From: Sphingomonadales bacterium
GTDB taxonomy: Bacteria > Pseudomonadota > Alphaproteobacteria > Sphingomonadales > Kordiimonadaceae
Assembly (NCBI GenBank): GCA_011088215.1
Contig: JAALKD010000003.1
Coordinates: 29,763-93,762, forward strand
Length of the DNA stretch: 64,000 nucleotides
Direction of reading: 5' to 3'
This document shows positions 16,290 to 64,000 of this stretch, piece by piece; position 1 is the first letter of the stretch; each line of letters starts with the position of its first letter. Both the position numbers and the translations under genes were made by a program. The notes beneath the pieces are model-generated. The model saw only the letters and a program-made list of their open reading frames with translations. It was not told the origin of the DNA and searched no databases.

Positions 16290-17870
16290 TTATCCCAGGC
16301 CCAGCGAGCCCGGGTTAACTACGCCCTTCTCGTCTACCAAAGCTTTTATACCATCCACGAGTTTGCCAGTCGTGTCAGCGCGTGTAGAGCGGTATGGATA
16401 GGTTCGTCCAATCTGGAAATGTACGCCGTTATATTTCCCGAAAATATCGATCACCTTGTGACGTAACCTACCCACAAATGCTGTTGCACTGGGGTTGGGC
16501 TCGAACTTTTCAGTTTTTGAAAGCACGTGTGCTTCAACTGTACGGCGGTGTATCTCGTTCAATTCCTCGGGCCATAAAAACACCGGCTCAACAAGATATC
16601 CATTGTTAGACAGTGTGGTCAAAAGATAGCCAGTCAAAACCCCGAACCGATCCAGTTCTTGTTTATTCTGTTCGAACAACTCTTCGATATCCGCTATGCA
16701 TTTTGGGCCATCTGACATGGCGACAATACCATGGACCGGAACCCACCTTTCGCCTTTGGGCCCCACGATATTATTAAGTGGTGTGAATGGGTTGGAGCGG
16801 ATGATTTTTGGGATAGAGTTTTCTATTTTCACCCCATTGTGACGGCGCGCAATTTCCTCCAGCGTGGTCATTTTTGCCGCCACCTCAGCTTGGGAATGCC
16901 CTTCGATAACCATGTGGACCGAATAAGCGACCTCCTCCATGTAGCCCCGTCCTGCAATCGCCACTTTGGCGCCCTCCTTAAGGCCTTTCAGGAGATTTTT
17001 CTGCCCCGTGATGACATTCTTGAGTGTCGAAACGTCTGACATCAGGCTCGCGCGTTCCATGCGCACACGTTGCAAGTTTGGATCGAACCCGAATAATTCG
17101 CACGCCAAACCCAGTCTACCGGCCTCCGCCATAAAAGCGGACCAGTCATCAAGCATTTCGAAATTATAGCTTGCCCAATCTTCGGCCTGCGGTGTTTTGA
17201 TAAGTCTGAACGACGCTTCCGCCTTATAGCCAAATGACCCTGCGTCAGAGAGGAACAGGCCAGTGAGATCAGGACCATATTGCCGGAAAAATGGCTTGCC
17301 GCCAACAGCGCCTGCGCTGCCAGTTTTAACTACACTACCATCGGCCAGAACAACCGTAAGGGACGTCACACTGTCGGTTGATGGCCCGTAAGTTCCTGCG
17401 CCAAAAAAGGCATTGTTCTGGGACAGGCCACCGCCAATTGTTGAGCTTATCCCCGAAAGGGGCCCCCAAAAGGGTGTGCGAACTCCAAGTGGTTTGAGTG
17501 CCTCATAAAGCGTTTGCCATGTGCAGCCAGCTTCAACCGTTACATACATATCCTCGGTGTTAACCTCTAGGATCTTATCCATCTTGCTGAGGTCAAGGAT
17601 GGCTGATTTGGACTTGGTTGGGGTGAAGCCACCTGTATAGGACATACCGCCGCCGCGTGGATTGATTGTCAAGCCGGCGTTGGATATCAGTTTAACTGCT
17701 TGCGCCAGTTCGTCAGTGCTTCGAGGTGAAGCCACTACATCTGCTGTCGTGCCTGTGGCCCATATATCTTGGCTAAAAAACGCTATCTCATTTTCATCAA
17801 GGCAAACGTTTTCTGTCCCAAGCAATTGTTGCAATGACTTCAACGCAAGGCCGCTTTCGGTAGTTTGCAT
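16290..17870 (-). CDS. FAD-linked oxidoreductase (VAO/PCMH, GlcD-like family)
   Basis: PRGGGMSYTGG, TVEAGCTW, STIGGGLSQN, GLFLSDAGSFG, VVNPGSLGL. ATG at 17888 is an alternative start. Confidence 0.85.
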   Translation of the reverse strand: MQTTESGLALKSLQQLLGTENVCLDENEIAFFSQDIWATGTTADVVASPRSTDELAQAVKLISNAGLTINPRGGGMSYTGGFTPTKSKSAILDLSKMDKILEVNTEDMYVTVEAGCTWQTLYEALKPLGVRTPFWGPLSGISSTIGGGLSQNNAFFGAGTYGPSTDSVTSLTVVLADGSVVKTGSAGAVGGKPFFRQYGPDLTGLFLSDAGSFGYKAEASFRLIKTPQAEDWASYNFEMLDDWSAFMAEAGRLGLACELFGFDPNLQRVRMERASLMSDVSTLKNVITGQKNLLKGLKEGAKVAIAGRGYMEEVAYSVHMVIEGHSQAEVAAKMTTLEEIARRHNGVKIENSIPKIIRSNPFTPLNNIVGPKGERWVPVHGIVAMSDGPKCIADIEELFEQNKQELDRFGVLTGYLLTTLSNNGYLVEPVFLWPEELNEIHRRTVEAHVLSKTEKFEPNPSATAFVGRLRHKVIDIFGKYNGVHFQIGRTYPYRSTRADTTGKLVDGIKALVDEKGVVNPGSLGLG

Positions 17871-17993
17871 GAAACTCTTCCCACTCATTCCCGTGCACCT
17901 ATTGCGCAGCGTTGGGTCTATTAGATGCCGACCACTGGACAGACGCATTGATGGAGATCAACGGCGCATTTACCTGTTTGGCGGCGCCGTAGT

Positions 17994-19271
17994 CTATTCC
18001 GCAGCCATTGATTTTTGCTGCCTATCGAAGGTCGGTTGCTGGCCAAGGAACAGGAGTATGACAGCGCCAAAAACAAATCCTATACCTGCGATTGTCAAAA
18101 TCAGATCGTACGACCCGGTAGCGATCTGAACTTTGTTATAGACGAAGGGCGATACTCCCGCGCCAACGCCGTATAACGCATAAATGATCGCATATGTGCG
18201 CCCATATGACCGCATACCAAAATAGCGGCTGGTTAAGAACGCCATCATGTCATACTCAACGCCCGCCGCAAGACCAGTGATTGCAAGGGCAAGTGAGTTC
18301 ATAAGCATACTGGACTGCTCCTGCATCAGGAGATAGCAGGCGATCACCGGGACAATCATAAAAACAAATGCCACTCCTGGGGGCCAGAAGCGATCAAGCA
18401 GATACCCCCCGAGCGCGCGGCCAAACAGGACTGAAAGCCCGGTGATGCCTACGCCTGTCAACAACGATGTGGCGGCTTGCGGGGTATAGCCTTTGTCAAG
18501 AAGGATCAAAACACTGTTGGCAAGAATTCCTGAGATCGCCGCACCCAACACAAAGAAGGAGGCCAGAAAAATATAAAACCGGTAGTTTCGAACAATCTCT
18601 GCCATTGTCATCCCATATGTTTCAACAGGCATGGGATCATCAGAGGTCATGATAATTTTTTTCTTATCGACCGATTTGTCGCTGAAAAGGAAAAAGGCAA
18701 TTGGGAAAGCGAAAACTATGGGAAGCGCACCAACACCAATATAGGCCGCTTTCCAACCCCAACCGTCAATAAGCCATTGAACATATGTTGGTGCGAAAAA
18801 GCCGTAAATTCCGGTGCCTGTCAACGCCACTCCAAGCGCGATGCCCCTCGTCTTGTCAAAGCTATTATTAATTGCTTTGGTCCAGGTAATGGGAAGCGTT
18901 CCAACGCTGAGCGTCGCCATCAATGTGAAGATAAGATAGAAAGCCCAAAGACTGCCATCCATGAATATGAATGTCATCATGGTCAGCCCAAGAATAATGG
19001 TAGACGGCAGAACAACCTTGCGAGGCCCATAGCGGTCGGTAAAGTATCCGGCAACCGGCGCACCAATAAAAACACCAATTGTCATACAGAAAAAACCAAA
19101 AGTTACTTCCGCCCGATCCCAGCCAAACTCTTTGATTAATTCGGGTGCCAGAACGCCTAACGAATAATACGGCAAGGGGCTAAGGCAAAAGGCGATCCCG
19201 ACAAGCGAGGATACAACAATTGGCCAACCCTTTGCCCATTCTGTCAGGCCGTTTTCCATTTGATGGCTCAT
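17994..19271 (-). CDS. MFS transporter
   Basis: 12 hydrophobic segments; motif A GYFTDRYGPRKV and second-half GYLLDRFW. Confidence 0.9.
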   Translation of the reverse strand: MSHQMENGLTEWAKGWPIVVSSLVGIAFCLSPLPYYSLGVLAPELIKEFGWDRAEVTFGFFCMTIGVFIGAPVAGYFTDRYGPRKVVLPSTIILGLTMMTFIFMDGSLWAFYLIFTLMATLSVGTLPITWTKAINNSFDKTRGIALGVALTGTGIYGFFAPTYVQWLIDGWGWKAAYIGVGALPIVFAFPIAFFLFSDKSVDKKKIIMTSDDPMPVETYGMTMAEIVRNYRFYIFLASFFVLGAAISGILANSVLILLDKGYTPQAATSLLTGVGITGLSVLFGRALGGYLLDRFWPPGVAFVFMIVPVIACYLLMQEQSSMLMNSLALAITGLAAGVEYDMMAFLTSRYFGMRSYGRTYAIIYALYGVGAGVSPFVYNKVQIATGSYDLILTIAGIGFVFGAVILLFLGQQPTFDRQQKSMAAE

Positions 19272-19314
19272 GCGTAATCCCTGCCCAATAACTTGTTATG
19301 TAACATCGTCAGTA

Positions 19315-19338
19315 GTATTATTCATATAACATTAATAC
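19315..19338. promoter_or_regulatory. 24-bp interrupted palindrome, candidate operator
   Basis: GTATTATTCATATAACATTAATAC; its reverse complement matches 22965-22988 at 22 of 24 positions. It lies between the divergent MFS and yciI genes. Confidence 0.7.
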
Positions 19339-19545: not shown

Positions 19546-19917
19546 GTGCCAGATACTGCCCCTCGTGTCGCTAAACTGGCTTCACAGACTTTTCTCGTAA
19601 TTTGCAAGGACGGTCCAAAAACGGAACCCCTCAGACGCAAACACCTGGAGGGTCATCTGATCTACATTGAGCACAATAATGATCGATACAGAGTCGCTGG
19701 CCCTATGCGAAATGAACAAGACGGCGCAATTGTTGGAAGCTTCTTTTTGGTCAGAGGCAAAGATGAGAAAGACGCAAGAGACTTCCTATCTGGCGACCCC
19801 TATTTCTCATCCAAAATGTACAACAGTGTTGAATTTTTTAACATCGTTCCTGCATGCGGGTCGTGGATGAAGGGTGTTATATGGGACCGCGAAGAAGCAG
19901 TCCGTCAGCACGGTTAG
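19546..19917 (+). CDS. YciI-family protein (dimeric alpha/beta barrel)
   Basis: LRRKHLEGHLIYI, VAGPM, GSFFLV, ARDFLSGDPYF. GTG start after SD AGGAG. Confidence 0.85.
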   Translation: MPDTAPRVAKLASQTFLVICKDGPKTEPLRRKHLEGHLIYIEHNNDRYRVAGPMRNEQDGAIVGSFFLVRGKDEKDARDFLSGDPYFSSKMYNSVEFFNIVPACGSWMKGVIWDREEAVRQHG

Positions 19918-19927
19918 GAGCTCAGTT

Positions 19928-20386
19928 ATGAATGATGCCGCTGAATTCCGCAAAGCCATGCCAAGCATGTTGAGGCACGAGGGCATTTGGGAAGGTGTGT
20001 ATACTCACGTCGATGAGAAAGCCACTATCATCGACCAGCACAGAGCCCGTGTTGTTTGCGAATTTCCAACCGATGGGCCTTTCGTCTATATCCAGCACAA
20101 CCATTTCATATGGGGCGATGGCCGAGAACATAAGGTTCAGTTGCCCGGGGTATTCCGAGATGGACGGCTTTGGTGGGACACCGAAACCTTTCACGGCTCC
20201 GCGTGGGAAACATCAGATGGCCTGGTCCTTCTCAATCTGGATCGGAAAGACGAGCCAGGAGCCAGTTTTTTTGAGATGATTGCTTTGGGCGATACCGGAA
20301 AACACCGGGCACGGACATGGCATTGGTTCAAAGACGGTAAGCTTTTTAAGCGAACGTTATGTGATGAGACATTGATTGGACGTTAG
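19928..20386 (+). CDS. DUF3598-like all-beta (lipocalin/FABP-like barrel) protein
   Basis: Beta-strand pattern with WEGVYTH near the N-terminus and RARTWHWFKDG...RTLCDE. SD AGGAG before ATG 19928. Family recalled from memory. Confidence 0.65.
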   Translation: MNDAAEFRKAMPSMLRHEGIWEGVYTHVDEKATIIDQHRARVVCEFPTDGPFVYIQHNHFIWGDGREHKVQLPGVFRDGRLWWDTETFHGSAWETSDGLVLLNLDRKDEPGASFFEMIALGDTGKHRARTWHWFKDGKLFKRTLCDETLIGR

Positions 20387-20477: not shown

Positions 20478-22658
20478 CTAGAAAGTTACGCCGAGGTCAA
20501 CCCCCCACGTCAATGGAGGCATCGCGTAAATATTGTTGGAACCGGTCGCGGCACGGAAGTACTCGCGGTCGGTCAGGTTTTTGCCCCACAAAGTTATACG
20601 CCAAGCACCACCATCGGGTTCGTAGCTCGCACGTGCATTAAGCGTCAAACCAGGCTCAGAAAGTGACGCGGGCGTGTTGGCAACAAGTGCAAACGAATCG
20701 TCTTCATATGCTGCGTCACCGCCAAAGGTGACTGTGCCACCAGCCATTTCAAAGTCGGACAGGAAACCTACTGTTATTTTAAAGGGTGGAGCCCCTTTCA
20801 ATTCCAGGTCCAGGGCACAATCAACACTTGGGGTGCCACCCGAACAAGCGGCCCCGTTGTTAGTGAGGGTTGCTGCCTGAAGATCTGTCAGCGAGTCATA
20901 TTTAGCATCCAGCCAGCTTGCATTAGCAAAGAACTGCAAGTTTTCCGTCGCATAGATTGTTGTCTCGACTTCTATTCCCTGAATGTCGGCTGAGCCAGCA
21001 TTAGACCGCGTGAAGCCTAAACCAGGAACGCTTGCGCTGATTTGTAAGTTGTCATAGCTGTTATAAAAATATGTCGCATTGAATCTTAAACGCTTGTCTT
21101 CCGAGTCTGACCGGAAACCAACCTCAAATGTTTCAACCTTTTCTTCTTCAACTGGCAAGAAACATGCTGCCGCACCAAAACAATCCGGTGAGAAGCCTGG
21201 GCTTTTGAAGCCGGTCGCGAACGAGCCGTATACCAAGAAATTATCGTTTACCTGATAATCAAGTTTTGTGGTGTAGGTGACGTTATTAGTATCCAAAGAT
21301 TCGTTTCTTGTGCCGCCTGGACCAGTACCTGTGAAATCTCTTGTTTCATTGGTATAACGCAGACCACCTGTGAATGTGAGGTCTTCGGTCACGTCATATG
21401 TACCTTGGCCGAAAACGGCGAACGATTCGGTATCTACACCAACAGTGAATGGGAAGAAAAATGTTGAATCAAGCGCAACATCTTCCTTGTAGTAAAACAT
21501 CCCGGAAACAAAGTTGAACGGGCCGTCAAAATCCGAAGAGAGCGTCACCTCCTGGCTGAACTGATCCTGATCTGTTTCCTGAAAAAACGGGAAGCTTATA
21601 TGTGTTGAAAGATCGTCATTGAGCGTTCGATAACCGGAAATAAGCGCAATATCGAAATCACCGACTCGACCGTCGATGCGCATGGACGCACCGAAAGCCT
21701 CAATCTCGCTTTCATGAGCTGCAAAACAACCAATTGTCCGAAAAATCAATGGCGTAGCTGACGAACATGTCTCGCCCGGATTGGGTTCCACGGTGAAAAT
21801 GCTACCGTCCGTATCGGTTACAACGCTCGGGTCATCACTTTCCGCAATGATGCTGCTTGGAACAGGATCAGAATTATCATTGGTGAAATCAACCGAGAAC
21901 AATGCTGACCAGTCTTCGTTGAAGGTGTGCTTCAACGCTCCCCGGAATGCAAATACCTCTTTGGCACCAGCTTCGCGTGATTCGCCTGATAAGTCACCAT
22001 TTGGATTCAGCTGATGGAAACCATCTCGCTCGCTATACAAACCTGAAACCCGGATCGCTGTTGCATCACCCAGCTCGACATTGGCTATGCCTTTAAAGTT
22101 CAGGCGCGCATCACTTCCGAAACCCGCTTCAGCAGACACGGTGTTCTCCTGTTGCGGTTGCACACTAACGAGTTTAACGGCACCGCCATTCGAGTTCCGT
22201 CCGTAAAGAGTTCCTTGGGGCCCGCGAAGCACCTCGATACGCTCCACATCAACCACATCAAGAAGCGAACCAACCGTCCGGCCTAAATATATGCCATCAA
22301 CATATATACCTACCGCTGGGTCGATAGCGCCCCGAGATTCGTCCTCACCGATGCCGCGGAAGAATATCCGGGCGGAGTTTGAGGTACCAGTGCCGTTTGA
22401 GATCACCACGTTAGGCACTTGGCGCTGTAAATCCAGAACACCGCGTATTTGTTTGGTTTCGATATCTGTCGCACTGAATGCCGACACGGCAACTGGAACA
22501 GACTGAAGCGATTCAGCGCGGCGCTGAGCAGTTACAATTACTTCTTCAATTTCGAACGCGGCATCAGCGTCACTATCTTGAGCAGAAACGGGTGACATCA
22601 AACCGCCGCCTATGATGAGTGCGCTCGCAGCTGTGGTCCTAGCGAGGATATATTTCAT
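20478..22658 (-). CDS. TonB-dependent receptor
   Basis: Signal peptide, IEEVIVTAQRRAESLQSVPVAVS, RIEVLRGPQGTLYGRN, C-terminal PLTWGVDLGVTF. SD AGGGAG. Confidence 0.95.
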   Translation of the reverse strand: MKYILARTTAASALIIGGGLMSPVSAQDSDADAAFEIEEVIVTAQRRAESLQSVPVAVSAFSATDIETKQIRGVLDLQRQVPNVVISNGTGTSNSARIFFRGIGEDESRGAIDPAVGIYVDGIYLGRTVGSLLDVVDVERIEVLRGPQGTLYGRNSNGGAVKLVSVQPQQENTVSAEAGFGSDARLNFKGIANVELGDATAIRVSGLYSERDGFHQLNPNGDLSGESREAGAKEVFAFRGALKHTFNEDWSALFSVDFTNDNSDPVPSSIIAESDDPSVVTDTDGSIFTVEPNPGETCSSATPLIFRTIGCFAAHESEIEAFGASMRIDGRVGDFDIALISGYRTLNDDLSTHISFPFFQETDQDQFSQEVTLSSDFDGPFNFVSGMFYYKEDVALDSTFFFPFTVGVDTESFAVFGQGTYDVTEDLTFTGGLRYTNETRDFTGTGPGGTRNESLDTNNVTYTTKLDYQVNDNFLVYGSFATGFKSPGFSPDCFGAAACFLPVEEEKVETFEVGFRSDSEDKRLRFNATYFYNSYDNLQISASVPGLGFTRSNAGSADIQGIEVETTIYATENLQFFANASWLDAKYDSLTDLQAATLTNNGAACSGGTPSVDCALDLELKGAPPFKITVGFLSDFEMAGGTVTFGGDAAYEDDSFALVANTPASLSEPGLTLNARASYEPDGGAWRITLWGKNLTDREYFRAATGSNNIYAMPPLTWGVDLGVTF

Positions 22659-22964: not shown

Positions 22965-22988
22965 GTATTAATGTTATTTCAATAATAC
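22965..22988. promoter_or_regulatory. 24-bp interrupted palindrome, candidate operator
   Basis: GTATTAATGTTATTTCAATAATAC, upstream of the TonB receptor; near-identical to the inverted 19315-19338 site. Confidence 0.7.
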
Positions 22989-54313: not shown

Positions 54314-54379
54314 TTTAAAATCCTCTCCCTCTCAACACTCTGGCTAAGCCTGTATATTTACAAGTTAATTAATTGACAT

Positions 54380-57902: not shown

Positions 57903-58021
57903 AGACCCCACCAAAAATTACTCAAGGACAAGAAGGTTGCCAAAAATTTCGCCTGAGCCCCTCACGCGAATTTAAGTGGCTATTGATGTGCATCAACGCC
58001 CGTCCACTTCAATCTACCTAT

Positions 58022-58035
58022 ATTGATATATCATT
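58022..58035. promoter_or_regulatory. ATTG-N-TATA-N-CAAT operator copy
   Basis: ATTGATATATCATT, sharing 15 consecutive bases (TATATTGATATATCA) with the 46420 palindrome; lies in the promoter divergent from the HutC-type regulator. Confidence 0.75.
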
Positions 58036-58120
58036 TGACCACAGTCCGCAATCACCGATACCGGTCAATTATAGTCTTTTACCAGGGCAGAAATTCAAGC
58101 TCAAACAAGGGAGATCGAGC

Positions 58121-58417
58121 GTGGCTGCATATATGGTTATTTTGGCCGAAATCCAAGACAGACAAGGTTTTATGTCTTATGCAAAAGAGGCTGCCCAGTT
58201 GATTGGAAAGTTTGGCGGCACCTACATTATTCACCGCGCCGAACGTTCCGAATGTCTTGAAGGTGATTGGCCGGATGAGACCAAAGTTGTTATATCTCAT
58301 TGGCCTTCATTTGAAGCCGCAAAAAAATTCTGGCAATCGCCAGAGTATGCCGAAATTAAGAAGTTGCGCCTGGGTAATTCGACCGTACGCGTTCGCCTTG
58401 TCGAGGCAGTTGAATGA
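58121..58417 (+). CDS. DUF1330-family protein (dimeric alpha/beta barrel)
   Basis: AAYMVI..I.D...F..Y......I.KFGG.Y, LEG.W, WPSFEAAKKFWQSPEY. GTG start after AAGGGAG. Confidence 0.85.
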   Translation: MAAYMVILAEIQDRQGFMSYAKEAAQLIGKFGGTYIIHRAERSECLEGDWPDETKVVISHWPSFEAAKKFWQSPEYAEIKKLRLGNSTVRVRLVEAVE

Positions 58418-59850
58418 CCGTGAGCACATCCCTAAAAGTGCGAAACCCCCGCACCGGTGAAAATGACTATGAAATTAGCGCCACCGCAAAAGAAGATGTC
58501 ACTTCGATTTGCACTGACCTGCGCTTGGCGCAAAAACACTGGGAGGCGTCCGGGCTGGAAAACCGGCTGTCTGTTTTGCGAGCATTTGCTACTTCAGTCA
58601 AATGGCACCGTGAAGAGATTTTAGCAGCCTTAACCGCCGATACAGGGCGACGCTACATTTCGTCAATGGAAGTGGACGGCATCGGGTCAACCGTTGAACG
58701 CTGGGCAAAAATCGCCAATGACCACGTGCCAGCCACGGGAACGTCATCGGCATTGCCATTCATAAAATACACTGTTGGATTTAAGGTGTATCCACTGGTC
58801 GGTGTCATTAGTCCATGGAACTTCCCATTAACCCTTTCATTGATTGACGCTCTGCCAGCATTGGTTGCAGGTGCGGCTGTCATTATAAAACCCAGCGAAG
58901 TAACACCGAGATTTGCAGCTCCGCTGCGCCGGGCGATAGCAGATGTACCCGAACTGGCTGCTGTATTGAAAGTGGTTGACGGTGCCGGTGAAACCGGCGC
59001 GGCACTGGTCGACAATGTCGATACAATTTGTTTCACTGGCAGTGTTGCCACAGGCCGCAAGGTGGGCGAACAGGCTGCAAGAAATTTCATCCCAAGTTTT
59101 CTTGAATTGGGCGGCAAGGATCCGGCAATTGTGCTCGCTAGCGCTGATGTCGAACGTGCCGCAACATCCTTGCTGCGCGCATCGACCCTCAACACTGGCC
59201 AAGCCTGCCAATCAATTGAACGAATTTATGTTGCTGAAGAAATATATGAAGAATTTTTGAAGCTACTTTGCCAAAAAGCAAAGGGCGTTTCGATCAATGC
59301 TGAGTCAATCGACCAAGGAATGATCGGCCCGGTTATTTTTGACAAACAAGCAACTATTATAGCTGACCAAATTGCCGACGCCAAAAGCAAAGGAGCCACC
59401 ATCCATACAGGTGGTGTTATCGAAAACCACGGCGGCCTCTGGTGCCGCCCAACCGTTATTTCAGGTCTCACCAGTGAAATGAAAATCATGCTGGAGGAAA
59501 CTTTTGGCCCGCTTCTGCCAGTAATCCCTTTTAAAACTGCAGACGAAGCCATCGCGCTTGCAAACAAGTCTGAGTATGGACTGAGTGCCGCCGTTTTTGC
59601 GGGGTCTGAGGAAGAGGCCTACGTAGTAGCAAACCAACTGGAGGCTGGCGGCATCAGCGTTAATGACGCCTCACTCACCGGACTGATGCACGAGGCTGAA
59701 AAAAACAGCTTCAAGCTAAGCGGCATGGGTGCGTCGCGCATGGGCATAAGTGGCTACACCCGCTTTTTCCGCAAACGGTCGATCATGACCAACACAGCGG
59801 ATGTTTTTGACATCAGTCAGTTTGACGAAGCGAATACCCCTAATGGCTAA
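58414..59850 (+). CDS. NAD(P)-dependent aldehyde dehydrogenase
   Basis: SPWNFP, KPSEVTP, FTGSVATG, LELGGKDP, NTGQACQSIER, EETFGP; ATGA overlap with DUF1330. Confidence 0.92.
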   Translation: MTVSTSLKVRNPRTGENDYEISATAKEDVTSICTDLRLAQKHWEASGLENRLSVLRAFATSVKWHREEILAALTADTGRRYISSMEVDGIGSTVERWAKIANDHVPATGTSSALPFIKYTVGFKVYPLVGVISPWNFPLTLSLIDALPALVAGAAVIIKPSEVTPRFAAPLRRAIADVPELAAVLKVVDGAGETGAALVDNVDTICFTGSVATGRKVGEQAARNFIPSFLELGGKDPAIVLASADVERAATSLLRASTLNTGQACQSIERIYVAEEIYEEFLKLLCQKAKGVSINAESIDQGMIGPVIFDKQATIIADQIADAKSKGATIHTGGVIENHGGLWCRPTVISGLTSEMKIMLEETFGPLLPVIPFKTADEAIALANKSEYGLSAAVFAGSEEEAYVVANQLEAGGISVNDASLTGLMHEAEKNSFKLSGMGASRMGISGYTRFFRKRSIMTNTADVFDISQFDEANTPNG

Positions 59851-59914
59851 ACCGTTGATGTAAGTCATAGCTTACCACCGGTACGTCTCAATAGGTTAAT
59901 CCGAGTATAATAAA

Positions 59915-60646
59915 GTGGACCCCTATATGACGCCCGAACTCATTGCTCTTATTACAGCGGCTGGCTCTATTGCGCTTTTGCACACTCTGATGGGCCCGGA
60001 CCATTATTTGCCATTTGTTGCACTGGGCAAATCGCGTGGCTGGAGCACAGAAAAAATGGCAGCTGTCACTGTTGGGTGTGGGCTGGGCCATTCGGTTGGC
60101 TCAATAGTTCTGGGACTCATAGGAATTTGGGCTGGAACCGCGTTGGACAGCCTTACCGGCATTGAGGGATTGCGCGGTGATCTTGCGGCGTGGGCGCTAT
60201 TGTCATTTGGCATTCTTTATATGGTTTGGGGTATTCGCCGGGCTGTGCGAAATAAACCGCACAGTCATTATCATGTCCACGCGGACGGTACGGGACATAC
60301 CCATAGCCATACCCACAAAACCGAGCATTTGCATGTGCATGAAGCGCCGGCAACCTCGCGCCTGAAGTTTGCACCTTGGACAATTTTCATCATCTTCGTG
60401 CTTGGCCCCTGCGAGCCCCTGATCCCCTTAATGATGTACCCAGCGGCTACCGTTTCGGCATTTGCCATGACGGCAGTGGTTGGCACTTTTGTGGTGGTGA
60501 CAGTGGCCACCATGACGGCGGTTGCGTTGGCGGTTTTCAAAGGGCTGCAATTTGTACCCGCAGCCTCTTTACAAAGATACACGCACGCGATCGCGGGTAG
60601 CACGCTTGCTTTCTGCGGTTTCGCAATCGTCGGCCTTGGACTGTAG
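59915..60646 (+). CDS. Nickel/cobalt transporter-like membrane protein (UreH/RcnA/NicO group) with His-rich loop
   Basis: LHTLMGPDHYLP, GLGHSVG, loop HSHYHVHADGTGHTHSHTHKTEHLHVH, LGPCEPLIP. Confidence 0.75.
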   Translation: MDPYMTPELIALITAAGSIALLHTLMGPDHYLPFVALGKSRGWSTEKMAAVTVGCGLGHSVGSIVLGLIGIWAGTALDSLTGIEGLRGDLAAWALLSFGILYMVWGIRRAVRNKPHSHYHVHADGTGHTHSHTHKTEHLHVHEAPATSRLKFAPWTIFIIFVLGPCEPLIPLMMYPAATVSAFAMTAVVGTFVVVTVATMTAVALAVFKGLQFVPAASLQRYTHAIAGSTLAFCGFAIVGLGL

Positions 60647-60656
60647 GGAGAGTTTA

Positions 60657-61565
60657 GTGACTGACTTTGGATACAAAGCAATCGATAGCGTCGTCAATAT
60701 ATGGACGCCGGAAGCCCTTAGTCATCGCCCGGGTTGGACGGATGAATTTTTTGTCGGAAAAATGAAAGGCAAGCACGACGAAGTTGGCATCAGCCTTGAA
60801 AAAATGATCGACGACATGGATGCTGCTGGCATCGAATATGGCTTTCTGGTTGCAGCGAAAGCCGGGCGCCCCGGTCTACCCGGTTGTTATCACATGCCGC
60901 CCGAAGTTGTAGCCGAAGCTGTCAAAAAATACCCGAAACGTTTTCTAGGGCTTATAGGCATCGACCCGTTTCAGGGTATGGACGGCGTGCGTGCCATGGA
61001 GCATGCGGTCAAAGAACTTGGCTTTATCGGCGCGCATCTCTATCCGCATTGGTACAATCTTGAGCCAAACGCAGCGCAGTATTACCCGTTTTATGCCAAA
61101 TGCATTGAACTGGGTATTCCCATCCAGATGCAGGTTGGTCAATCACTGATTTATTCCAAAGAGTATCGCTGTCGGTCTGTAGGCCGGCCCATATATTTGG
61201 ATGATATCGCCTGCGACTTGCCAGAGCTTAAACTGATCGGCACGCATGTTGGTATTCCGTGGCACGACGAAATGATCGCCATGTCGTGGAAACATGAAAA
61301 TGTTTATATCGCCACCGACGCCCACAGCCCCAAATACTGGCCAGAAAGCGTTTGGAAATATATCAACAGCTACGGCCAGGACAAAGTAATTTTCGGCTCG
61401 GATTTTCCGGTTCTCCGGTTCGGCCGAACTGTATCCGAGATCGACGATTACGGCCTGAAACCTGCTGTTCGCAAAAAATTCATGCGTAATAATGTGGTCA
61501 AACTATACGGCTTAGAGAAACTCGGCATCAAGCCCGCGCCTGATCATCAAGCAGGGGGCAACTGA
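60657..61565 (+). CDS. Amidohydrolase-superfamily (Amidohydro_2) metalloenzyme
   Basis: FLGLIGIDP, GAHLYPHW, LKLIGTHVGIPW, KVIFGSDFP. GTG start after AGGGAG. Confidence 0.85.
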   Translation: MTDFGYKAIDSVVNIWTPEALSHRPGWTDEFFVGKMKGKHDEVGISLEKMIDDMDAAGIEYGFLVAAKAGRPGLPGCYHMPPEVVAEAVKKYPKRFLGLIGIDPFQGMDGVRAMEHAVKELGFIGAHLYPHWYNLEPNAAQYYPFYAKCIELGIPIQMQVGQSLIYSKEYRCRSVGRPIYLDDIACDLPELKLIGTHVGIPWHDEMIAMSWKHENVYIATDAHSPKYWPESVWKYINSYGQDKVIFGSDFPVLRFGRTVSEIDDYGLKPAVRKKFMRNNVVKLYGLEKLGIKPAPDHQAGGN

Positions 61566-61566
61566 T

Positions 61567-62778
61567 ATGCCCGGCCCGTTGGTCGGCATCAAGGTTGTTG
61601 AGTTTACCAGTGTGGTCCTGGGGCCGTGGGCATGCCAGATGCTCGGCGACATGGGCGCAGATGTGGTGAAGGTTGAGCCACCAACAGGCGACACCAATCG
61701 CAATCTGGGCCCTTACCGCGAGACCGGCAATATGTGCGCGCTTTATATGACCTGTAACCGTAACAAGCGGTCGGTCGTGCTGGACCTGAAGTCTGATAAA
61801 GGCCGCGAGGCCGCGTTTAAAATGGTCGCTGATGCCGATGTGATGGTGCATAATTTTCGGCCTACCGCGATGGAAAAACTGGGTCTGGACTACGGCGCCG
61901 TTAAGGCCGTAAATCCCAACATTATTTACTGCGCCACCTATGGTTTCAGCCGCAAAGGTCGCTACGGCAACCGCGGCGCGCTTGATGACGGCATTCAGGC
62001 TGTATCTGGCATCTCCATGTTGATGGCACGTGCACTAGGTGATGATCAGCCGCGTTACCTGCCCACCGTTATTGCCGACAAAACAACTGGCTTGAATGTG
62101 GTGAATGCGGTTTGCGCCGCGCTCTTCTCGCGGGAACGCACCGGCAAAGGCCAGTCCATCGAGGTGCCGATGTTTGAAAGTACGGTTTCGTTTCTCATGG
62201 CAGAGCACCAGTGGGGCCAAACCTTCGAGCCAGCTATTGGCGGTGCCGGTTACGCCCGGTTGCTTGCGGACAACCGAAAGCCCTACAAAACCAAAGATGG
62301 TTACATCTCTATGTTGCCCTATTGGGACAACCACTGGAAAACATTCTGCGGTATCATTAACCGACCCGATATGGTCACCGATCCAAAGTTCGATCGCATG
62401 AAAAACCGGTTGGTCAACATTAATGAAATGCACGCGCAAATCAGCGCTGCGCTTCTGGAACGCACGACCGATGAGTGGGTCGCAGCACTGGAGCCAACCA
62501 ATGTGCCCTTTATGGTCGTCAATTCTTTGGATGATCTGATCAATGACCCACATCTGGTTGAAAGCGGATACTGGCAGATATTTGATCACCCGACCGAAGG
62601 CAAGATCCGCATGGGATCATCGCCTTACAACTTCTCTGAAACCCCGGCTTCCATTCGCCGCCTGCCGCCCCATCTGGGAGAGCACAGCCGCGAAATACTG
62701 TCCGAAGCAGGATACAGCGACCAGGAAATTGACACCATGCTGGCGGACGGAGTTACCCGCACGCAGCAACCCCGATAA
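61567..62778 (+). CDS. Third class III CoA-transferase
   Basis: VVLGPWAC, VVKVEPPTGD, NRNKRSVVLDLK, HNFRP, IADKTTG. Confidence 0.92.
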   Translation: MPGPLVGIKVVEFTSVVLGPWACQMLGDMGADVVKVEPPTGDTNRNLGPYRETGNMCALYMTCNRNKRSVVLDLKSDKGREAAFKMVADADVMVHNFRPTAMEKLGLDYGAVKAVNPNIIYCATYGFSRKGRYGNRGALDDGIQAVSGISMLMARALGDDQPRYLPTVIADKTTGLNVVNAVCAALFSRERTGKGQSIEVPMFESTVSFLMAEHQWGQTFEPAIGGAGYARLLADNRKPYKTKDGYISMLPYWDNHWKTFCGIINRPDMVTDPKFDRMKNRLVNINEMHAQISAALLERTTDEWVAALEPTNVPFMVVNSLDDLINDPHLVESGYWQIFDHPTEGKIRMGSSPYNFSETPASIRRLPPHLGEHSREILSEAGYSDQEIDTMLADGVTRTQQPR

Positions 62779-62797
62779 CCGTTAACTGGAGGAAACC

Positions 62798-63070
62798 ATG
62801 AGCAAACATGTTCAGGATGAAAAACCACCGATGACCGCCGAAGCCAAAGAGTGGTTCGATAAGGAAATCGCATCGCAGGAAGATCGTTACAAAGCGATTG
62901 TCGACGAACAGGACGGCCTGATCCCAGAGCGGGAGAAATGGTACACCGATTTTCTGGAAATTGTTCAAACACGAGGCTTCAGCGTGACGGGCGACACCCG
63001 CCGTCCGATCAGCAAAGAAGAAGTTCCGGAAAAGCCCGACCGCCCCGACGCCATGCGCGTTGTTTGGTAA
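62798..63070 (+). CDS. Small acidic hypothetical protein
   Basis: 90 aa, SD GGAGG, sits between the CoA-transferase and cupin genes in one operon. Confidence 0.78.
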   Translation: MSKHVQDEKPPMTAEAKEWFDKEIASQEDRYKAIVDEQDGLIPEREKWYTDFLEIVQTRGFSVTGDTRRPISKEEVPEKPDRPDAMRVVW

Positions 63071-63096
63071 ATTTGACATAAGAAAAGGAATATAAA

Positions 63097-64000
63097 ATGG
63101 CACGTCCTCATATGGAGCCCTATGTCGAGTTTAATGAAGATTACCGGCTGTTTGATTTTGCCGGGTATAAAGACGCACACTATAAAGTGCTGTCACTCGA
63201 CACTGACACAGGCGCAAGTTCACTCAAAGTCCGCTTCGACGGTGGCTACGCCCGCAAGCCCGGCCTTTGCTATTCAGATATGGAAATTTTTGTCCTTAAC
63301 GGCGAGATGAAAGTTGGCACAGAAACCTGGGTTGAAGGCCACTTTGCATTCATTCCCGCAGGTGTTGCCCTAGGCGCGATAGAAGTTGCCCAAGGCGCAG
63401 AGGCAATAGTTTGGTACAACGACAGCGAACCCACATTTGAAGAAACCGACCGCGACCATCCGTTGGCACTAAAAGAAGGTTTCATCTCGGTAAACAGCTA
63501 TCTTGATCGCCCGTGGGCAAGCGGATCAATCGTATCACCAGCCACTGCAACAGGGTGCATGTTGAAGCTGCTGCGCTTTGACCCAATCACAGAAGCCATG
63601 ACCTTCCTTTACTGCATGACACCAGAGTTTATGCAGGACAACATCAGCTATCATGATTGTTCAGAGGAAAGTTATCATATCTGGGGCACCAGCTGGATGA
63701 TGCAGTTCGGCGAACTGCCTACAGGGGGCTATTTCTGGCGCCCGCCATACATTAACCACGGCTCGTTCCGGTCCAAGCTAGGCTGTATTGCGATTGGTCG
63801 CACCGACAGCAAGCTGCATAATTATTTCCACTTTAATCCCTGGACCAACCCTGATGACAATCAGGCACGCGCGGCATCATTCCTATACCGCCAACGCCCG
63901 CAGCTATTTCAGTGGGTTGCCTCAGGCGGCCACAATCACCCACACGGACCACAGGGACAATTGAAGCCACAAAAACCGCCGCATGACTTTGAAACCCCTG
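63097..64000 (+). CDS. Bicupin (DUF4437/ChrR-like) protein, truncated by the window edge
   Basis: Not in the ORF track. ATG 63097 after AAGGA, open to the end: MARPHMEPYVE...EIFVLNG...FIPAGV...YHDCSEESYHIWG...YFWRPPYINHG, i.e. cupin motifs with metal ligands in the second domain. Confidence 0.75.
   Translation, partial: MARPHMEPYVEFNEDYRLFDFAGYKDAHYKVLSLDTDTGASSLKVRFDGGYARKPGLCYSDMEIFVLNGEMKVGTETWVEGHFAFIPAGVALGAIEVAQGAEAIVWYNDSEPTFEETDRDHPLALKEGFISVNSYLDRPWASGSIVSPATATGCMLKLLRFDPITEAMTFLYCMTPEFMQDNISYHDCSEESYHIWGTSWMMQFGELPTGGYFWRPPYINHGSFRSKLGCIAIGRTDSKLHNYFHFNPWTNPDDNQARAASFLYRQRPQLFQWVASGGHNHPHGPQGQLKPQKPPHDFETP

What the first reader, a model, noticed from the sequence alone, without database searches (positions are those of the whole stretch)
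16290..64000. Candidate undescribed catabolic island for pyrrole/lactam/cyclic-imide compounds, possibly tetrapyrrole (bilin) products
Seen: about 48 kb made almost entirely of uptake, C-N hydrolase, hydratase, CoA-transferase/lyase, small beta-barrel and regulator genes, linked by shared operators. The C-N hydrolases are HyuAB, two PuuE-like enzymes, two NicF-like enzymes and an Amidohydro_2 protein; a CpcT/CpeT-like remnant and a DUF3598 barrel are also present. Known: CpcT/CpeT proteins bind bilins; bilins have lactam end rings and oxidise to dipyrrinones and substituted maleimides; some ABM-fold proteins (IsdG type) cleave heme. Inference: TonB uptake, oxidative or hydrolytic fragmentation, ring opening, deamidation, then acid catabolism. 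Other N-heterocycles (pyridines, lactams, ureides) remain possible substrates.
Basis: partly seen in the sequence, partly recalled or inferred. Interest (0 to 1): 0.9.

Follow-up and report, generated by a model that had tools for sequence, protein, structure and literature searches.

The report
Co-regulated cyclic-amide breakdown gene supercluster
A marine Kordiimonas-like bacterium carries about 40 jointly regulated genes, also found together in distant relatives, that probably import small nitrogen-containing ring compounds, open them, remove ammonia and split the leftover acids; the compound is unknown and a link to pigment (bilin or chlorophyll) breakdown is not shown.

Summary
Window 25.4-64 kb keeps its gene order in three Kordiimonas genomes. 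About 25 of the same gene families lie together, in shuffled order, in a genome of another family (G044).

Two operator families tie the region together:
- TTGTATACAW boxes for the GntR(FCD) module.
- A 16-bp palindrome, TATTGATATATCAATA, with 6 of its 20 genome-wide sites in this window. It sits before the same operons in relatives.

Best reading (confidence 0.42): two ring-opening and deamidation lines feed substituted maleate-type acids. One line is ATP-dependent HyuAB plus an isochorismatase-fold amidase. The other is two PuuE/imidase-like proteins plus a second such amidase. A catabolic LeuCD paralogue then hydrates the acids, and CoA-transferase/HMG-CoA-lyase-like pairs cleave them.

The tetrapyrrole/bilin origin is not supported:
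- The CpcT-like remnant is real but a dead gene, absent from relatives at this site.
- The DUF3598 match is below threshold.
- The receptors are not heme-type.
- The ABM protein shows no similarity to IsdG.
- The Amidohydro_2 protein resembles decarboxylases and hydratases, not C-N hydrolases.

The scan has noted the HyuAB core module before in other genomes, and I found no paper describing it. New here is its regulatory and genomic link to the PuuE-like triad, to LeuCD/DUF1838 and to the ALDH-Amidohydro_2 operon.

The parts
16290..19271 (-). FAD_binding_4 oxidase (16290-17948) and MFS transporter (17994-19271)
   Evidence: Pfam. A FAD-oxidase homologue (41-48%) recurs beside HyuAB and DUF1838-LeuCD clusters elsewhere.
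19315..19338 (.). 24-bp operator copy 1, in the divergent MFS1 / YCII1 promoter region
   Evidence: Matches 22965-22988 at 22 of 24 bases. The 13-bp core GTATTAATGTTAT occurs only twice in the genome. It also matches the 16-mer palindrome with up to 3 mismatches.
19546..20386 (+). YCII-family protein (19546-19917) and a 170-aa protein with a weak DUF3598_N match (19874-20386)
   Evidence: YCII E=1e-7. DUF3598_N E=0.033, below the cut-off. A 46% homologue lies beside the PuuE triad in L196.
20478..22682 (-). TonB-dependent receptor 1
   Evidence: Plug and barrel domains. Scores 101 bits against the heme-receptor cut-off of 317.
22965..22988 (.). 24-bp operator copy 2, upstream of TBDR1
23068..25278 (.). 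LysR regulator (23068-23976, minus strand) and ADH_N_2 NADPH ene-reductase (24256-25278, plus strand)
   Evidence: Pfam. Curcumin-reductase-like, 271 bits against a cut-off of 440.
25450..28883 (.). TonB-dependent receptor 2 (minus strand) and GntR(FCD) regulator (plus strand). This is the left edge of the block that is syntenic in Kordiimonas.
   Evidence: A TBDR2 homologue accompanies HyuAB in 24 of 80 metagenome loci. One TTGTATACAT box lies at 28183.
28889..30735 (-). Isochorismatase-fold amidase Isoch1 and family-III CoA-transferase CoAT1, overlapping by 4 bp
   Evidence: Isoch1 matches N-carbamoylsarcosine amidase at 1e-39, NicF at 2.5e-36 and Ami at 4e-35, and the TSGCV Cys motif aligns.
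30808..30840 (.). Two TTGTATACAW boxes in the divergent CoAT1 / HMGL1 spacer; presumed GntR(FCD) operator
   Evidence: Both boxes are conserved in G001, G003 and G005.
30868..35794 (+). HMG-CoA-lyase-like HMGL1, then HyuA and HyuB (ATP-dependent hydantoinase/oxoprolinase/caprolactamase family)
   Evidence: HyuA orthologues at 63-68% identity are widespread.
35843..37245 (.). Secreted ABM-domain protein (minus strand) and LysR regulator (plus strand)
   Evidence: The ABM protein is 44-48% conserved in two relatives with no match in G001. It shows no similarity to any solved structure.
37342..39983 (+). Isoch2-PuuE1-PuuE2 operon: an amidase and two PuuE/imidase-like proteins
   Evidence: The triad is conserved in 15 of 16 alphaproteobacterial loci.
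39987..43925. Six VOC-fold proteins (39987, 41816, 42405, 42939, 43461, the first with two domains) and alpha/beta hydrolase ABH1 (41006-41803). ABH1 has GFHTG at the position that ABH2's alignment identifies as the nucleophile elbow.
   Evidence: Syntenic in Kordiimonas but not found in the G044 cluster.
43931..46175 (.). MFS transporter 2 (minus strand) and a 239-aa polytopic membrane protein with no family match (plus strand)
   Evidence: Both recur beside DUF1838 in Gammaproteobacteria.
46422..46437 (.). Perfect 16-bp palindrome TATTGATATATCAATA upstream of DUF1838-LeuCD
   Evidence: Conserved as TATTGTTATATCAATA in G001, G003 and G005.
46475..49421 (+). Secreted DUF1838 protein and the catabolic LeuC/LeuD paralogue
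   Evidence: The housekeeping leuCDB operon is on contig C4. The nearest solved structures to LeuC are isopropylmalate/citramalate isomerase and homoaconitase.
49424..54002 (.). YCII2 and HMGL2 (minus strand), CoAT2 (plus), ADH_N_2 ene-reductase (minus), and alpha/beta hydrolase ABH2 (plus; GFHTG at the nucleophile elbow)
   Evidence: A palindrome site lies at 50770.
54011..54313 (-). Pseudogene remnant of a secreted CpcT/CpeT-family protein: N-terminal and C-terminal pieces, frameshifts and an in-frame stop
54379..56922 (+). Palindrome site (54379-54394) and TonB-dependent receptor 3 (54436-56922)
   Evidence: The site is conserved in relatives.
57090..57914 (-). GntR/HutC-type (UTRA) regulator, the candidate binder of the 16-bp palindrome
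   Evidence: A palindrome site lies in its divergent promoter at 58021 here, and at the same place in G001, G003, G005 and G044. That it binds the site is an inference.
57983..64000 (+). DUF1330, aldehyde dehydrogenase, His-rich membrane protein (59915-60646), Amidohydro_2, CoAT3, a conserved 90-aa ORF (62798-63070) and a DUF4437 cupin (runs past the window end; 367 aa in full)
   Evidence: The whole operon lies beside HyuAB in L102 and in G044.

Best explanation
This is a multi-operon, co-regulated catabolic supercluster for one class of small nitrogen-containing ring compounds, most likely cyclic imides or unsaturated lactams with a maleimide/citraconimide-type or glutarimide-type skeleton.

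Proposed route; all steps are inferred from family membership and gene neighbourhood, and none was assayed:
1. TonB-dependent receptors bring the compounds into the periplasm. MFS carriers, and perhaps secreted VOC, ABM and DUF1838 proteins, handle them there.
2. Two parallel lines open the ring. HyuAB spends ATP. The PuuE1/PuuE2 pair acts like the metal-independent imidases of the PuuE family.
3. Isochorismatase-fold amidases (Isoch1, Isoch2), related to maleamate amidase and N-carbamoylsarcosine amidase, release ammonia and leave a substituted cis-butenedioate (maleate-type) acid.
4. The LeuCD paralogue hydrates it to a 2-hydroxy acid of the D-malate, citramalate or dialkylmalate type.
5. 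Family-III CoA-transferases make the CoA ester. HMG-CoA-lyase-like enzymes split it into an acyl-CoA and a 2-oxo acid.

The ALDH-Amidohydro_2-CoAT3-cupin operon and the FAD oxidase, ene-reductases and nitrilase-type amidase probably trim side chains or handle related congeners.

A GntR(FCD) repressor controls the HyuAB module through TTGTATACAW boxes. A HutC-type regulator probably controls the rest through the TATTGATATATCAATA palindrome.

The natural substrate is unknown.
For: - Gene families.
- Synteny of 25.4-64 kb in three Kordiimonas genomes.
- About 25 of the same families within about 45 kb, in shuffled order, in a genome of another family (G044).
- HyuAB lies with HMGL (44), GntR (35), CoAT (34), Isoch (34) and TBDR (24) among 80 metagenome loci. 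LeuCD-like genes are in 8.
- Further recurrent neighbours of HyuAB are a PEP-mutase/ICL-family lyase (8 loci; the family of 2,3-dimethylmalate lyase) and an Asp/Glu/hydantoin racemase-family protein (12 loci; the family of maleate isomerase).
- The Isoch2-PuuE1-PuuE2 triad is kept in 15 of 16 loci, with an aconitase-family subunit beside it in 9 of 16. L183 adds LeuCD, CoAT2 and HMGL2.
- Both amidases are closest to maleamate amidases and N-carbamoylsarcosine amidase.
- The PuuE family contains proven cyclic imidases: BpIH (PMC11424739) and HxnM (PMC9304392).
- The window's LeuCD is a paralogue; the housekeeping leuCDB operon is elsewhere.
- Operators are enriched and conserved before the same operons in relatives and in G044.
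- From my own knowledge: LeuCD-like enzymes hydrate maleate (HbzIJ), citraconate and dimethylmaleate (DmdAB). An HMGL-family R-citramalyl-CoA lyase works with a family-III CoA-transferase in Chloroflexus.
Against: - No enzyme reaches an equivalog cut-off: HyuA 504 against 1000, HyuB 231 against 1000, PuuE-like 125 and 113 against 424.6, and the CoA-transferases below 280 against 700-750.
- By alignment, the third residue (Trp) of the PuuE Glu-His-Trp triad is His in PuuE2. By eye it appears to be Asn in PuuE1.
- Cyclic imides hydrolyse without ATP, so an ATP-dependent HyuAB fits a lactam or hydantoin better.
- Isoch1 is marginally closer to N-carbamoylsarcosine amidase than to NicF.
- Many genes have no place in the scheme: six VOC proteins, the YCII, DUF1330 and DUF1838 proteins, the cupin, and the His-elbow hydrolases.
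- DUF1838 lies next to LeuCD only in Kordiimonadales-type loci (8-9 of 80).
- There are no expression or biochemical data.
Confidence: 0.42

Rival explanations
1. The substrates are tetrapyrrole products: bilins, or the maleimides, hematinic acid and dipyrrinones formed when chlorophyll, heme or bilins oxidise. They are imported by the TonB receptors, fragmented in the periplasm, and then degraded as in the main scheme.
For: - The chemistry fits. Dialkylmaleimides would give dialkylmaleates for LeuCD, and then alkylmalyl-CoA cleavage.
- Mono- and dipyrrolic chlorophyll and heme products such as hematinic acid and methyl ethyl maleimide are documented in nature (PMC7318184, PMC10343206; listed, abstracts only read).
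- CpeT/CpcT-family genes do lie next to DUF1838 and a TBDR in L024 and L035. A decayed copy sits at 54011-54313.
- Three parallel CoA-transferase sets would suit several differently substituted fragments.
- Several proteins carry signal peptides: ABM, the two-domain VOC, VOCa and DUF1838.
Against: - The CpcT-like gene is a pseudogene here and absent at this site in the three syntenic relatives. It adjoins DUF1838 in only 2 of 80 loci.
- The CpeT model finds nothing in the window, and the DUF3598 match is below threshold.
- The receptors score far below heme-receptor cut-offs.
- The ABM protein has no IsdG-like similarity and is poorly conserved.
- The DUF1838 model has no calycin-like or any other match among solved structures.
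- No heme oxygenase or bilin reductase is in the window.
- I found no paper on bacterial maleimide catabolism linked to these genes.
Confidence: 0.08
2. A hydantoin or ureide route. HyuAB opens a 5-substituted hydantoin or a similar ureide ring, as in the creatinine/N-methylhydantoin pathway. The isochorismatase-fold enzymes act as N-carbamoyl amidases. The PuuE-like pair acts on allantoin-like ureides.
For: - Isoch1's best solved match is N-carbamoylsarcosine amidohydrolase at 1e-39.
- HyuAB followed by that amidase is the known creatinine branch (my own knowledge).
- An Asp/Glu/hydantoin racemase-family gene accompanies HyuAB in 12 metagenome loci.
- PuuE itself is an allantoinase.
Against: - No deaminase, oxidase or transaminase for an amino-acid product sits in the conserved core.
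- The constant partners (CoA-transferase, HMGL lyase, LeuCD) need a dicarboxylate, not an amino acid.
- The PuuE-like proteins fail the PuuE cut-off and lack its Trp.
- No ureidoglycolate or allantoate enzymes were found in the window.
Confidence: 0.15
3. A regulon for nitrogen-free or mixed substrates, such as butenolides, lactones, or enone- or quinone-type plant and algal metabolites. The hydrolases would act mainly on esters or lactones, and the nitrogen-releasing steps would be peripheral. Alternatively, it is a mosaic of several unrelated pathways that only share a regulator.
For: - The nearest relatives of the Amidohydro_2 protein are decarboxylases and a hydratase (ACMSD, LigW, gamma-resorcylate decarboxylase, LigJ).
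- ABH2's best solved matches are entries 4G5X/4G8B, deposited as 'alpha/beta hydrolase fold protein'; from my own knowledge these are the AHL lactonase AidH.
- There are two ene-reductases of the curcumin/alkenal reductase type, six VOC proteins, a cupin, and YCII/ABM/DUF1330 barrels typical of small-molecule isomerases and oxygenases.
- The VOC block is missing from the G044 cluster, which shows the cluster is modular.
Against: - At least five C-N hydrolase genes (HyuAB, two PuuE-like, two amidases), plus a nitrilase-family amidase nearby, form the conserved core in all genomes compared.
- One conserved operator covers most operons in two families. That argues for one metabolic theme.
Confidence: 0.2

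Closest known systems
Bacterial cyclic-imide pathway of Blastobacter sp. A17p-4 (imidase, half-amidase, maleate hydratase, D-malic enzyme; Ogawa, Soong and Shimizu; cited from my own knowledge), with PuuE-family imidases BpIH (PMC11424739) and HxnM (PMC9304392)
   Same: The same order of chemistry: ring hydrolysis of an imide, hydrolysis of the half-amide, then hydration of a maleate-type acid. PuuE-fold imidase candidates and a LeuCD-type hydratase are both present.
   Different: The amidases here have the isochorismatase fold. A second, ATP-dependent ring opener (HyuAB) is present. The hydroxy acid is cleaved through a CoA-transferase and an HMGL-like lyase instead of a malic enzyme. The cluster also has TonB uptake and many extra genes.
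Creatinine / N-methylhydantoin branch (ATP-dependent N-methylhydantoin amidohydrolase HyuAB plus N-carbamoylsarcosine amidase)
   Same: HyuAB is paired with an isochorismatase-fold amidase. Isoch1's best solved match is N-carbamoylsarcosine amidase.
   Different: No creatinine deaminase or sarcosine oxidase is present. The constant partners are a CoA-transferase, a lyase and a hydratase, which that pathway does not use.
nic / pic clusters (nicotinate and picolinate catabolism in Pseudomonas, Bordetella and Alcaligenes)
   Same: NicF/Ami-like maleamate amidase homologues. A maleate-type intermediate is inferred.
   Different: No NicAB-type Mo hydroxylase, NicC monooxygenase, NicX dioxygenase or NicE maleate isomerase was found in the window.
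Last steps of nicotinate fermentation in Eubacterium barkeri (dimethylmaleate hydratase DmdAB plus 2,3-dimethylmalate lyase), and maleate hydratase HbzIJ (my own knowledge)
   Same: A LeuCD-like two-subunit hydratase acts on a substituted maleate, followed by C-C cleavage. A PEP-mutase/ICL-family lyase replaces or joins the HMGL lyase in 8 HyuAB loci.
   Different: In this window the cleavage depends on CoA (CoAT plus HMGL). The upstream steps are unrelated.
Chloroflexus aurantiacus succinyl-CoA:D-citramalate CoA-transferase plus R-citramalyl-CoA lyase (HMGL family), and itaconate degradation (Ict/Ich/Ccl) (my own knowledge)
   Same: A family-III CoA-transferase is paired with a lyase that splits a 3-hydroxy-3-carboxy acyl-CoA.
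   Different: The itaconate route uses a MaoC hydratase and an HpcH/CitE-type lyase, and neither is present here. Substrate specificity was not tested.

Membership tests
PuuE allantoinase (TIGR03212) | Score above the curated cut-off of 424.6 bits | tested here: not met
   125 and 113 bits.
PuuE allantoinase / PuuE-type imidase | Metal-independent Glu-His-Trp triad (PMC11424739) | tested here: not met
   In the alignment to 3CL6, PuuE2 has His where PuuE has Trp, and the His-Gly motif is kept. PuuE1 reads SHGIYN, so Asn sits at that position; that was read by eye. Glu in the first motif is present in both (NIE in PuuE1, ALE in PuuE2).
Maleamate amidohydrolase (NicF / Ami) or N-carbamoylsarcosine amidase subgroup of isochorismatase-fold hydrolases | Close similarity and the catalytic Asp-Lys-Cys triad | tested here: inconclusive
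   Isoch1 matches N-carbamoylsarcosine amidase at 1e-39, NicF (3OT4) at 2.5e-36 and Ami (4L07) at 4e-35, and the TSGCVRA Cys motif aligns. Isoch2 matches Ami at 9.5e-29. No NCBIfam equivalog is reached. The data cannot tell an amide substrate from a carbamoyl substrate.
Caprolactamase CapAB / acetophenone carboxylase (equivalogs of the HyuAB family) | Score above the equivalog cut-offs | tested here: not met
   504 against 1000 and 231 against 1000 for CapA and CapB; 271 against 1500 for ApcC. Pfam Hydantoinase_A, Hydantoinase_B and Hydant_A_N domains are all present.
3-isopropylmalate dehydratase LeuCD (biosynthetic) | A leuB neighbour, the only copy in the genome, and the canonical HEVTSPQAF motif | tested here: not met
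   The subfamily models are passed (669 against 531). However, the copy linked to leuB and carrying HEVTSPQAF is on contig C4. The window copy is 45% identical to it and lies among catabolic genes.
HMG-CoA lyase | NF004283 subfamily cut-off of 246 bits | tested here: met
   HMGL1 scores 290.5 and HMGL2 277.7 bits. This is a subfamily model only, so the substrate (HMG-CoA, citramalyl-CoA or alkylmalyl-CoA) was not tested.
CpcT/CpeT bilin lyase family (PF06206) | Match to the Pfam model and an intact reading frame | tested here: not met
   No match in the window. The remnant has a stop, frameshifts and an internal deletion. Intact homologues in L024 and L035 do match, at 7e-32 and 9e-33.
IsdG-type heme-degrading ABM proteins | Detectable similarity to IsdG, IsdI or MhuD | tested here: not met
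   Only the generic ABM domain matches, at 4.5e-10. No solved ABM protein is matched at E up to 1.
TonB-dependent heme/hemoglobin receptors (TIGR01785 / TIGR01786) | Score above cut-offs of 317 and 324 bits | tested here: not met
   101, 106 and 67 bits for the three receptors.
nic cluster (aerobic nicotinate catabolism) | NicAB hydroxylase, NicC, NicX and NicE alongside NicF | tested here: not met
   Only NicF-like amidases are present. None of the other domains appeared in any window ORF of 100 aa or more.

The most novel reading that the evidence does not exclude
The cluster is the first bacterial pathway for mineralising the monopyrrolic oxidation products of chlorophyll, heme and bilins: dialkylmaleimides, hematinic acid and pyrrolinone amides. 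HyuAB and the PuuE-like imidases would open the rings. NicF-like amidases would release ammonia. LeuCD with the CoA-transferase/HMGL-lyase pairs would cleave the dialkylmaleates. The CpcT-like and DUF1838 proteins would be periplasmic pigment-fragment binders.
Probability: 0.08. Interest if true: 0.85.

Novelty: new variant of a known kind. Interest (0 to 1): 0.6.

Why it matters
If the main reading holds, this is an undescribed and widespread route by which aquatic and soil bacteria recover nitrogen and carbon from cyclic imides or lactams. HyuA orthologues at about 65% identity were found in many different metagenome assemblies.

It would assign functions to several large orphan groups:
- the HyuAB subgroup,
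- the paired PuuE-like proteins,
- a catabolic LeuCD clade,
- HMGL/CoA-transferase pairs,
- DUF1838 and DUF1330,
- the His-elbow alpha/beta hydrolases.

This window is useful because it places the separately noted modules under one conserved operator. That gives a defined regulon and two candidate repressors for inducer screening. If the substrates turned out to be pigment breakdown products, it would fill a gap in the turnover of a very abundant class of biomolecules.

Tried and rejected
- **CpeT Pfam search of the whole genome:** no match in the window. The remnant could be placed only through tblastx to neighbours of DUF1838 in other genomes.
- **Literal operator pattern ATTGNNTATANNCAAT:** no match. 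The real motif is a 16-bp palindrome with different spacing.
- **DUF1838 structure:** a good model (pLDDT 84) gave no meaningful match among solved structures (best TM about 0.27). No function could be drawn from it, and it shows no calycin or CpcT-like fold.
- **Literature searches:** DUF1838, maleimide/maleamate/imidase, hydantoinase plus isochorismatase plus CoA-transferase clusters, the Blastobacter half-amidase, and N-methylhydantoinase acting on imides. None returned a paper describing this cluster.
- **Nicotinate/picolinate, itaconate and creatinine pathways:** rejected as full matches because defining enzymes are missing.
- **Horizontally transferred island:** rejected, because composition is uniform and the block is syntenic within the genus.
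- **DUF1838-LeuCD as a general pair:** rejected. It is confined to Kordiimonadales-type loci.

Full report
**Organism and setting.**
The window is G000:C110:29763-93762, from a 4.0-Mb draft genome of 147 contigs. The best matches of its DUF1838 protein are Kordiimonas MAGs at 77-83% identity. I therefore treat the organism as a Kordiimonas-like marine alphaproteobacterium. Composition is even across the window (GC 0.47-0.55; genome 0.512).

**Gene content.**
- *Uptake and regulation:* three TonB-dependent receptors, two MFS carriers, one GntR(FCD), one GntR(UTRA/HutC) and two LysR regulators.
- *Hydrolases:* HyuA/HyuB, two isochorismatase-fold hydrolases, two PuuE-like proteins, an Amidohydro_2 protein and two alpha/beta hydrolases.
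- *Acid catabolism:* LeuC/LeuD, three family-III CoA-transferases, two HMG-CoA-lyase-like proteins, two ADH_N_2 ene-reductases, an aldehyde dehydrogenase and a FAD_binding_4 oxidase.
- *Small-fold proteins:* DUF1838, two YCII proteins, ABM, DUF1330, six VOC proteins and a DUF4437 cupin.
- *Corrections:* the DUF3598 call rests on E=0.033, below the cut-off. The nearest relatives of the Amidohydro_2 protein are an uncharacterised Bordetella protein, then ACMSD, LigW, gamma-resorcylate decarboxylase and LigJ. These are C-C and hydration chemistry, not C-N hydrolysis.
- *New items:* two ORFs without a family match are membrane proteins, and one of them (59915-60646) has a His-rich loop. A 90-aa ORF at 62798-63070 is conserved in relatives.

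**The CpcT-like remnant.**
The Pfam CpeT model finds nothing in the window. The minus strand of 54011-54313 does encode a signal-peptide-like start. After a frameshift it reads '...MVS*LEGEFDNMEQVYFD...', and in another frame '...AVSNAWAEPDSDRVAINLRWIQASC...'.

tblastx links these two pieces to the N- and C-terminal parts of a 342-aa secreted protein in L024, about 800 bp apart there. That protein, and a 310-aa one in L035, are clear CpeT/CpcT-family members (E=7e-32 and 9e-33). Both lie next to DUF1838.

It is dead here. The ABH2-TBDR3 spacer in three syntenic relatives is too short to hold it. Full-length CpcT-like genes adjoin DUF1838 in only 2 of 80 loci.

**Conservation.**
- In three Kordiimonas genomes the order TBDR2 ... 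DUF4437 (window 25.4-64 kb) is kept gene for gene, at 50-96% protein identity.
- The left 9 kb (FAD oxidase to ADH_N_2) is not at that place in those genomes. They instead carry a nitrilase-type amidase, an ADH_N_2 and a FAD-oxidase paralogue downstream of DUF4437.
- Within the genus the trait is patchy. HyuA orthologues at 77% identity or more are in 7 of 24 other genomes, and DUF1838 is in 4 of 24.
- G044, from another family of the same order, holds about 25 of the same gene families within about 45 kb, in a different order. These are the PuuE2-PuuE1-Isoch2 operon, the 239-aa membrane protein, HMGL2, CoAT2, GntR(UTRA), the DUF1330-ALDH-membrane protein-Amidohydro_2-CoAT3 operon, DUF4437, Isoch1, CoAT1, HMGL1-HyuAB, ADH_N_2, a TBDR, DUF1838-LeuCD, a nitrilase-type amidase, a FAD oxidase, a second LeuCD and an ABH2-like hydrolase.
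- Shuffled order with retained content is good evidence of functional coupling. The VOC block, ABH1, MFS2, YCII2 and ABM were not found in the G044 cluster.

**Wider neighbourhoods.**
- *HyuA scan.* A metagenome scan returned 80 loci, mostly at about 65% identity. Within them were HMGL (44), GntR(FCD) (35), CoAT (34), Isoch (34), TBDR2-like (24) and LeuCD-like (8).
 - L112 also carries Isoch2-PuuE1-PuuE2 and HMGL2.
 - L102 carries the whole GntR(UTRA)...DUF4437 operon.
- *Other recurrent neighbours.* Clustering all ORFs of these loci showed further neighbours:
 - an Asp/Glu/hydantoin racemase-family protein (12 loci);
 - a SnoaL-like protein (11);
 - an ALDH (11);
 - a methyltransferase (9), also inserted between CoAT2 and ADH_N_2 in the Kordiimonas relatives;
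 - a PEP-mutase/ICL-family lyase (8);
 - a FAD oxidase (8);
 - the His-elbow alpha/beta hydrolase (5).
- *PuuE1 scan.* A search of 300 alphaproteobacterial genomes found PuuE1 matches at E 1e-70 or better in 25, scattered over many families. In 16 fetched neighbourhoods the Isoch2-PuuE1-PuuE2 triad is kept in 15. An aconitase-family large subunit lies beside it in 9, and a HutC-type regulator in 5.
 - L183 adds LeuCD (59%), CoAT2 (65%) and HMGL2 (75%).
 - L186 adds HyuAB.
 - L196 adds DUF1838, DUF1330, ALDH and a homologue of the 170-aa DUF3598-like protein.
- *DUF1838 scan.* DUF1838 lies next to LeuCD only in Kordiimonadales-type loci (8-9 of 80). Elsewhere it lies with VOC proteins, MFS2, the 239-aa membrane protein, DUF1330 and ADH_N_2.

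**Regulation.**
- *TTGTATACAW boxes.* The motif occurs 7 times in the genome. Three copies are in the window: two in the CoAT1/HMGL1 divergent spacer and one at the TBDR2/GntR junction. The two spacer boxes are conserved in all three relatives.
- *The 24-bp pair.* The sites at 19315-19338 and 22965-22988 match at 22 of 24 bases. Their 13-bp core is unique to these two places in the genome.
- *The 16-bp palindrome.* Footprinting against relatives showed a common palindrome, perfect at 46422 (TATTGATATATCAATA). With up to 3 mismatches it has 20 sites in the genome, and 6 are in this window, against about 0.3 expected. The six are at:
 - 19319 (MFS1/YCII1 promoter);
 - 22969 (upstream of TBDR1);
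 - 46422 (upstream of DUF1838-LeuCD);
 - 50770 (HMGL2/CoAT2);
 - 54379 (upstream of TBDR3);
 - 58021 (GntR(UTRA)/DUF1330).
- *Conservation of the palindrome.* Equivalent sites precede the same operons in G001, G003 and G005. In G044 they sit in the PuuE-operon/membrane-protein, HMGL2/CoAT2, GntR(UTRA)/DUF1330 and ADH_N_2/TBDR spacers.
- *Conclusion.* The 'shared operators' claim holds. The palindrome also ties the non-syntenic left 9 kb to the rest. Assigning the palindrome to the HutC-type regulator is an inference from its position.

**What the enzymes resemble.**
- Isoch1 and Isoch2 are closest to N-carbamoylsarcosine amidase and to the maleamate amidases NicF (3OT4/3UAO) and Ami (4L07/4L08). 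The alignments keep the Cys motif.
- PuuE1 and PuuE2 are closest to PuuE allantoinase (3CL6), and next to 3S6O. 3S6O is 91% identical to the proven glutarimide imidase BpIH (PMC11424739). The fungal cyclic imidase HxnM belongs to the same fold group (PMC9304392). Both window proteins fall far below the PuuE cut-off and lack its Trp.
- HyuAB scores best against caprolactamase, but at half or less of the cut-off.
- The LeuCD here is a paralogue. The leuCDB operon with the canonical HEVTSPQAF motif is on contig C4, and a third copy is on C80. The nearest solved structures are isopropylmalate/citramalate isomerase and homoaconitase.
- Both HMGL proteins pass the HMG-CoA-lyase subfamily model. The CoA-transferases match succinate-glutarate and succinyl-CoA:mesaconate transferases, well below their cut-offs.
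- The receptors are generic.
- The ABM protein matches no solved structure.
- The DUF1838 model is confident (pLDDT 84) but has no match among solved structures.

**Mechanism.**
The constant core across genomes is a ring-opening hydrolase, an isochorismatase-fold amidase, a CoA-transferase and an HMGL lyase. A LeuCD-type hydratase is often present. Sometimes an ICL-family lyase or an Asp/Glu-racemase-family protein appears.

From established enzymology (my own knowledge):
- LeuCD-like enzymes hydrate maleate (HbzIJ), citraconate and dimethylmaleate (DmdAB).
- The ICL family contains 2,3-dimethylmalate lyase.
- The racemase family contains maleate isomerase.
- An HMGL-family R-citramalyl-CoA lyase pairs with a family-III CoA-transferase in Chloroflexus.

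The most economical reading is: cyclic imide or unsaturated lactam, then half-amide, then substituted maleate plus ammonia, then substituted malate, then its CoA ester, then an acyl-CoA plus a 2-oxo acid. Two parallel entry lines feed it, HyuAB/Isoch1 and PuuE1-PuuE2/Isoch2.

This follows the logic of the Blastobacter cyclic-imide pathway with different protein families and a CoA-dependent ending. Every step is inferred. I give it 0.42.

Weak points:
- an imide does not need ATP for hydrolysis;
- the amidases are equally close to a carbamoyl amidase;
- about a dozen genes have no place in the scheme.

**The tetrapyrrole idea.**
It is chemically coherent. Dialkylmaleimides and hematinic acid are documented pigment breakdown products (PMC7318184, PMC10343206; abstracts only). 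They would feed this scheme, and CpcT-family genes do occasionally sit beside DUF1838.

Each specific pillar is weak or failed, as set out above. I keep it at 0.08 as the most novel reading not excluded.

**Relation to earlier notes of this scan.**
The HyuAB-Isoch-CoAT-HMGL-GntR-TBDR module has been reported several times in other genomes. Follow-ups called it an uncharacterised cyclic-amide or N-heterocycle cluster with no matching paper. My searches agree.

What this window adds:
- the module's physical and regulatory link to the PuuE-like triad, LeuCD/DUF1838 and the ALDH-Amidohydro_2 operon;
- conservation of that larger set across two families;
- the shared palindrome.

**Limits.**
Neighbourhood counts come from related and metagenomic sequences that are not independent of each other.

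Noticed in passing
41006-41803 and 53190-54002: Both alpha/beta hydrolases carry G-F-H-T-G at the nucleophile elbow. In the alignment to the best solved match (4G5X; from my own knowledge the AHL lactonase AidH), the His lies opposite the Ser of GWSLGG, the G-x-S-x-G nucleophile motif. A similar G-V-H-T-G protein recurs in 5 HyuAB metagenome loci.
   Followed up: partly
59915-60646: A 243-aa polytopic membrane protein with a His-rich loop (HSHYHVHADGTGHTHSHTHKTEHLHVH) lies between the ALDH and Amidohydro_2 genes. It is conserved there in relatives and in G044. It may be a metal transporter serving the metal-dependent Amidohydro_2 enzyme. It matches no Pfam or NCBIfam family.
   Followed up: partly
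62798-63070: An unannotated 90-aa ORF lies between CoAT3 and DUF4437. It is conserved at 58-92% identity at the same place in G003, G005, G044 and the metagenome locus L102.
   Followed up: partly
46475-47404: The DUF1838 protein is secreted. Its AlphaFold model is confident (pLDDT 84.3, pTM 0.79) and mostly beta-strand, but no solved structure matches it (best TM about 0.27). It may be an undescribed fold.
   Followed up: yes
G000 contig C102:30440-32298: A second DUF1838 paralogue (42%) lies directly after a 306-aa secreted protein. That protein resembles the C-terminal domain of the CpcT-like proteins (28% over 194 aa) but matches no Pfam family.
   Followed up: partly
G000 contig C62:7628-8587: A 78% paralogue of HMGL1 sits at a contig end after the NUDIX gene. 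In Kordiimonas relatives that NUDIX gene directly precedes TBDR2. This suggests a rearrangement or duplication at the cluster's ancestral left border.
   Followed up: no
G000 contig C110:4153-14143 (upstream of the window): Two further HyuA/HyuB pairs (33-35% to the window pair) and another TonB-dependent receptor lie about 16-26 kb before the window start.
   Followed up: no
Relatives G003/G005/G001, between CoAT2 and ADH_N_2 (equivalent to window 52066): The relatives carry an extra SAM-methyltransferase-like gene and a GPH-type MFS gene that the window lacks. The same methyltransferase family recurs beside HyuAB in 9 metagenome loci.
   Followed up: partly
G000 contig C80:18432-21330: A third LeuCD pair (47% and 39% to the window pair) is co-oriented with an alpha/beta hydrolase. 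It is probably another catabolic hydratase.
   Followed up: no
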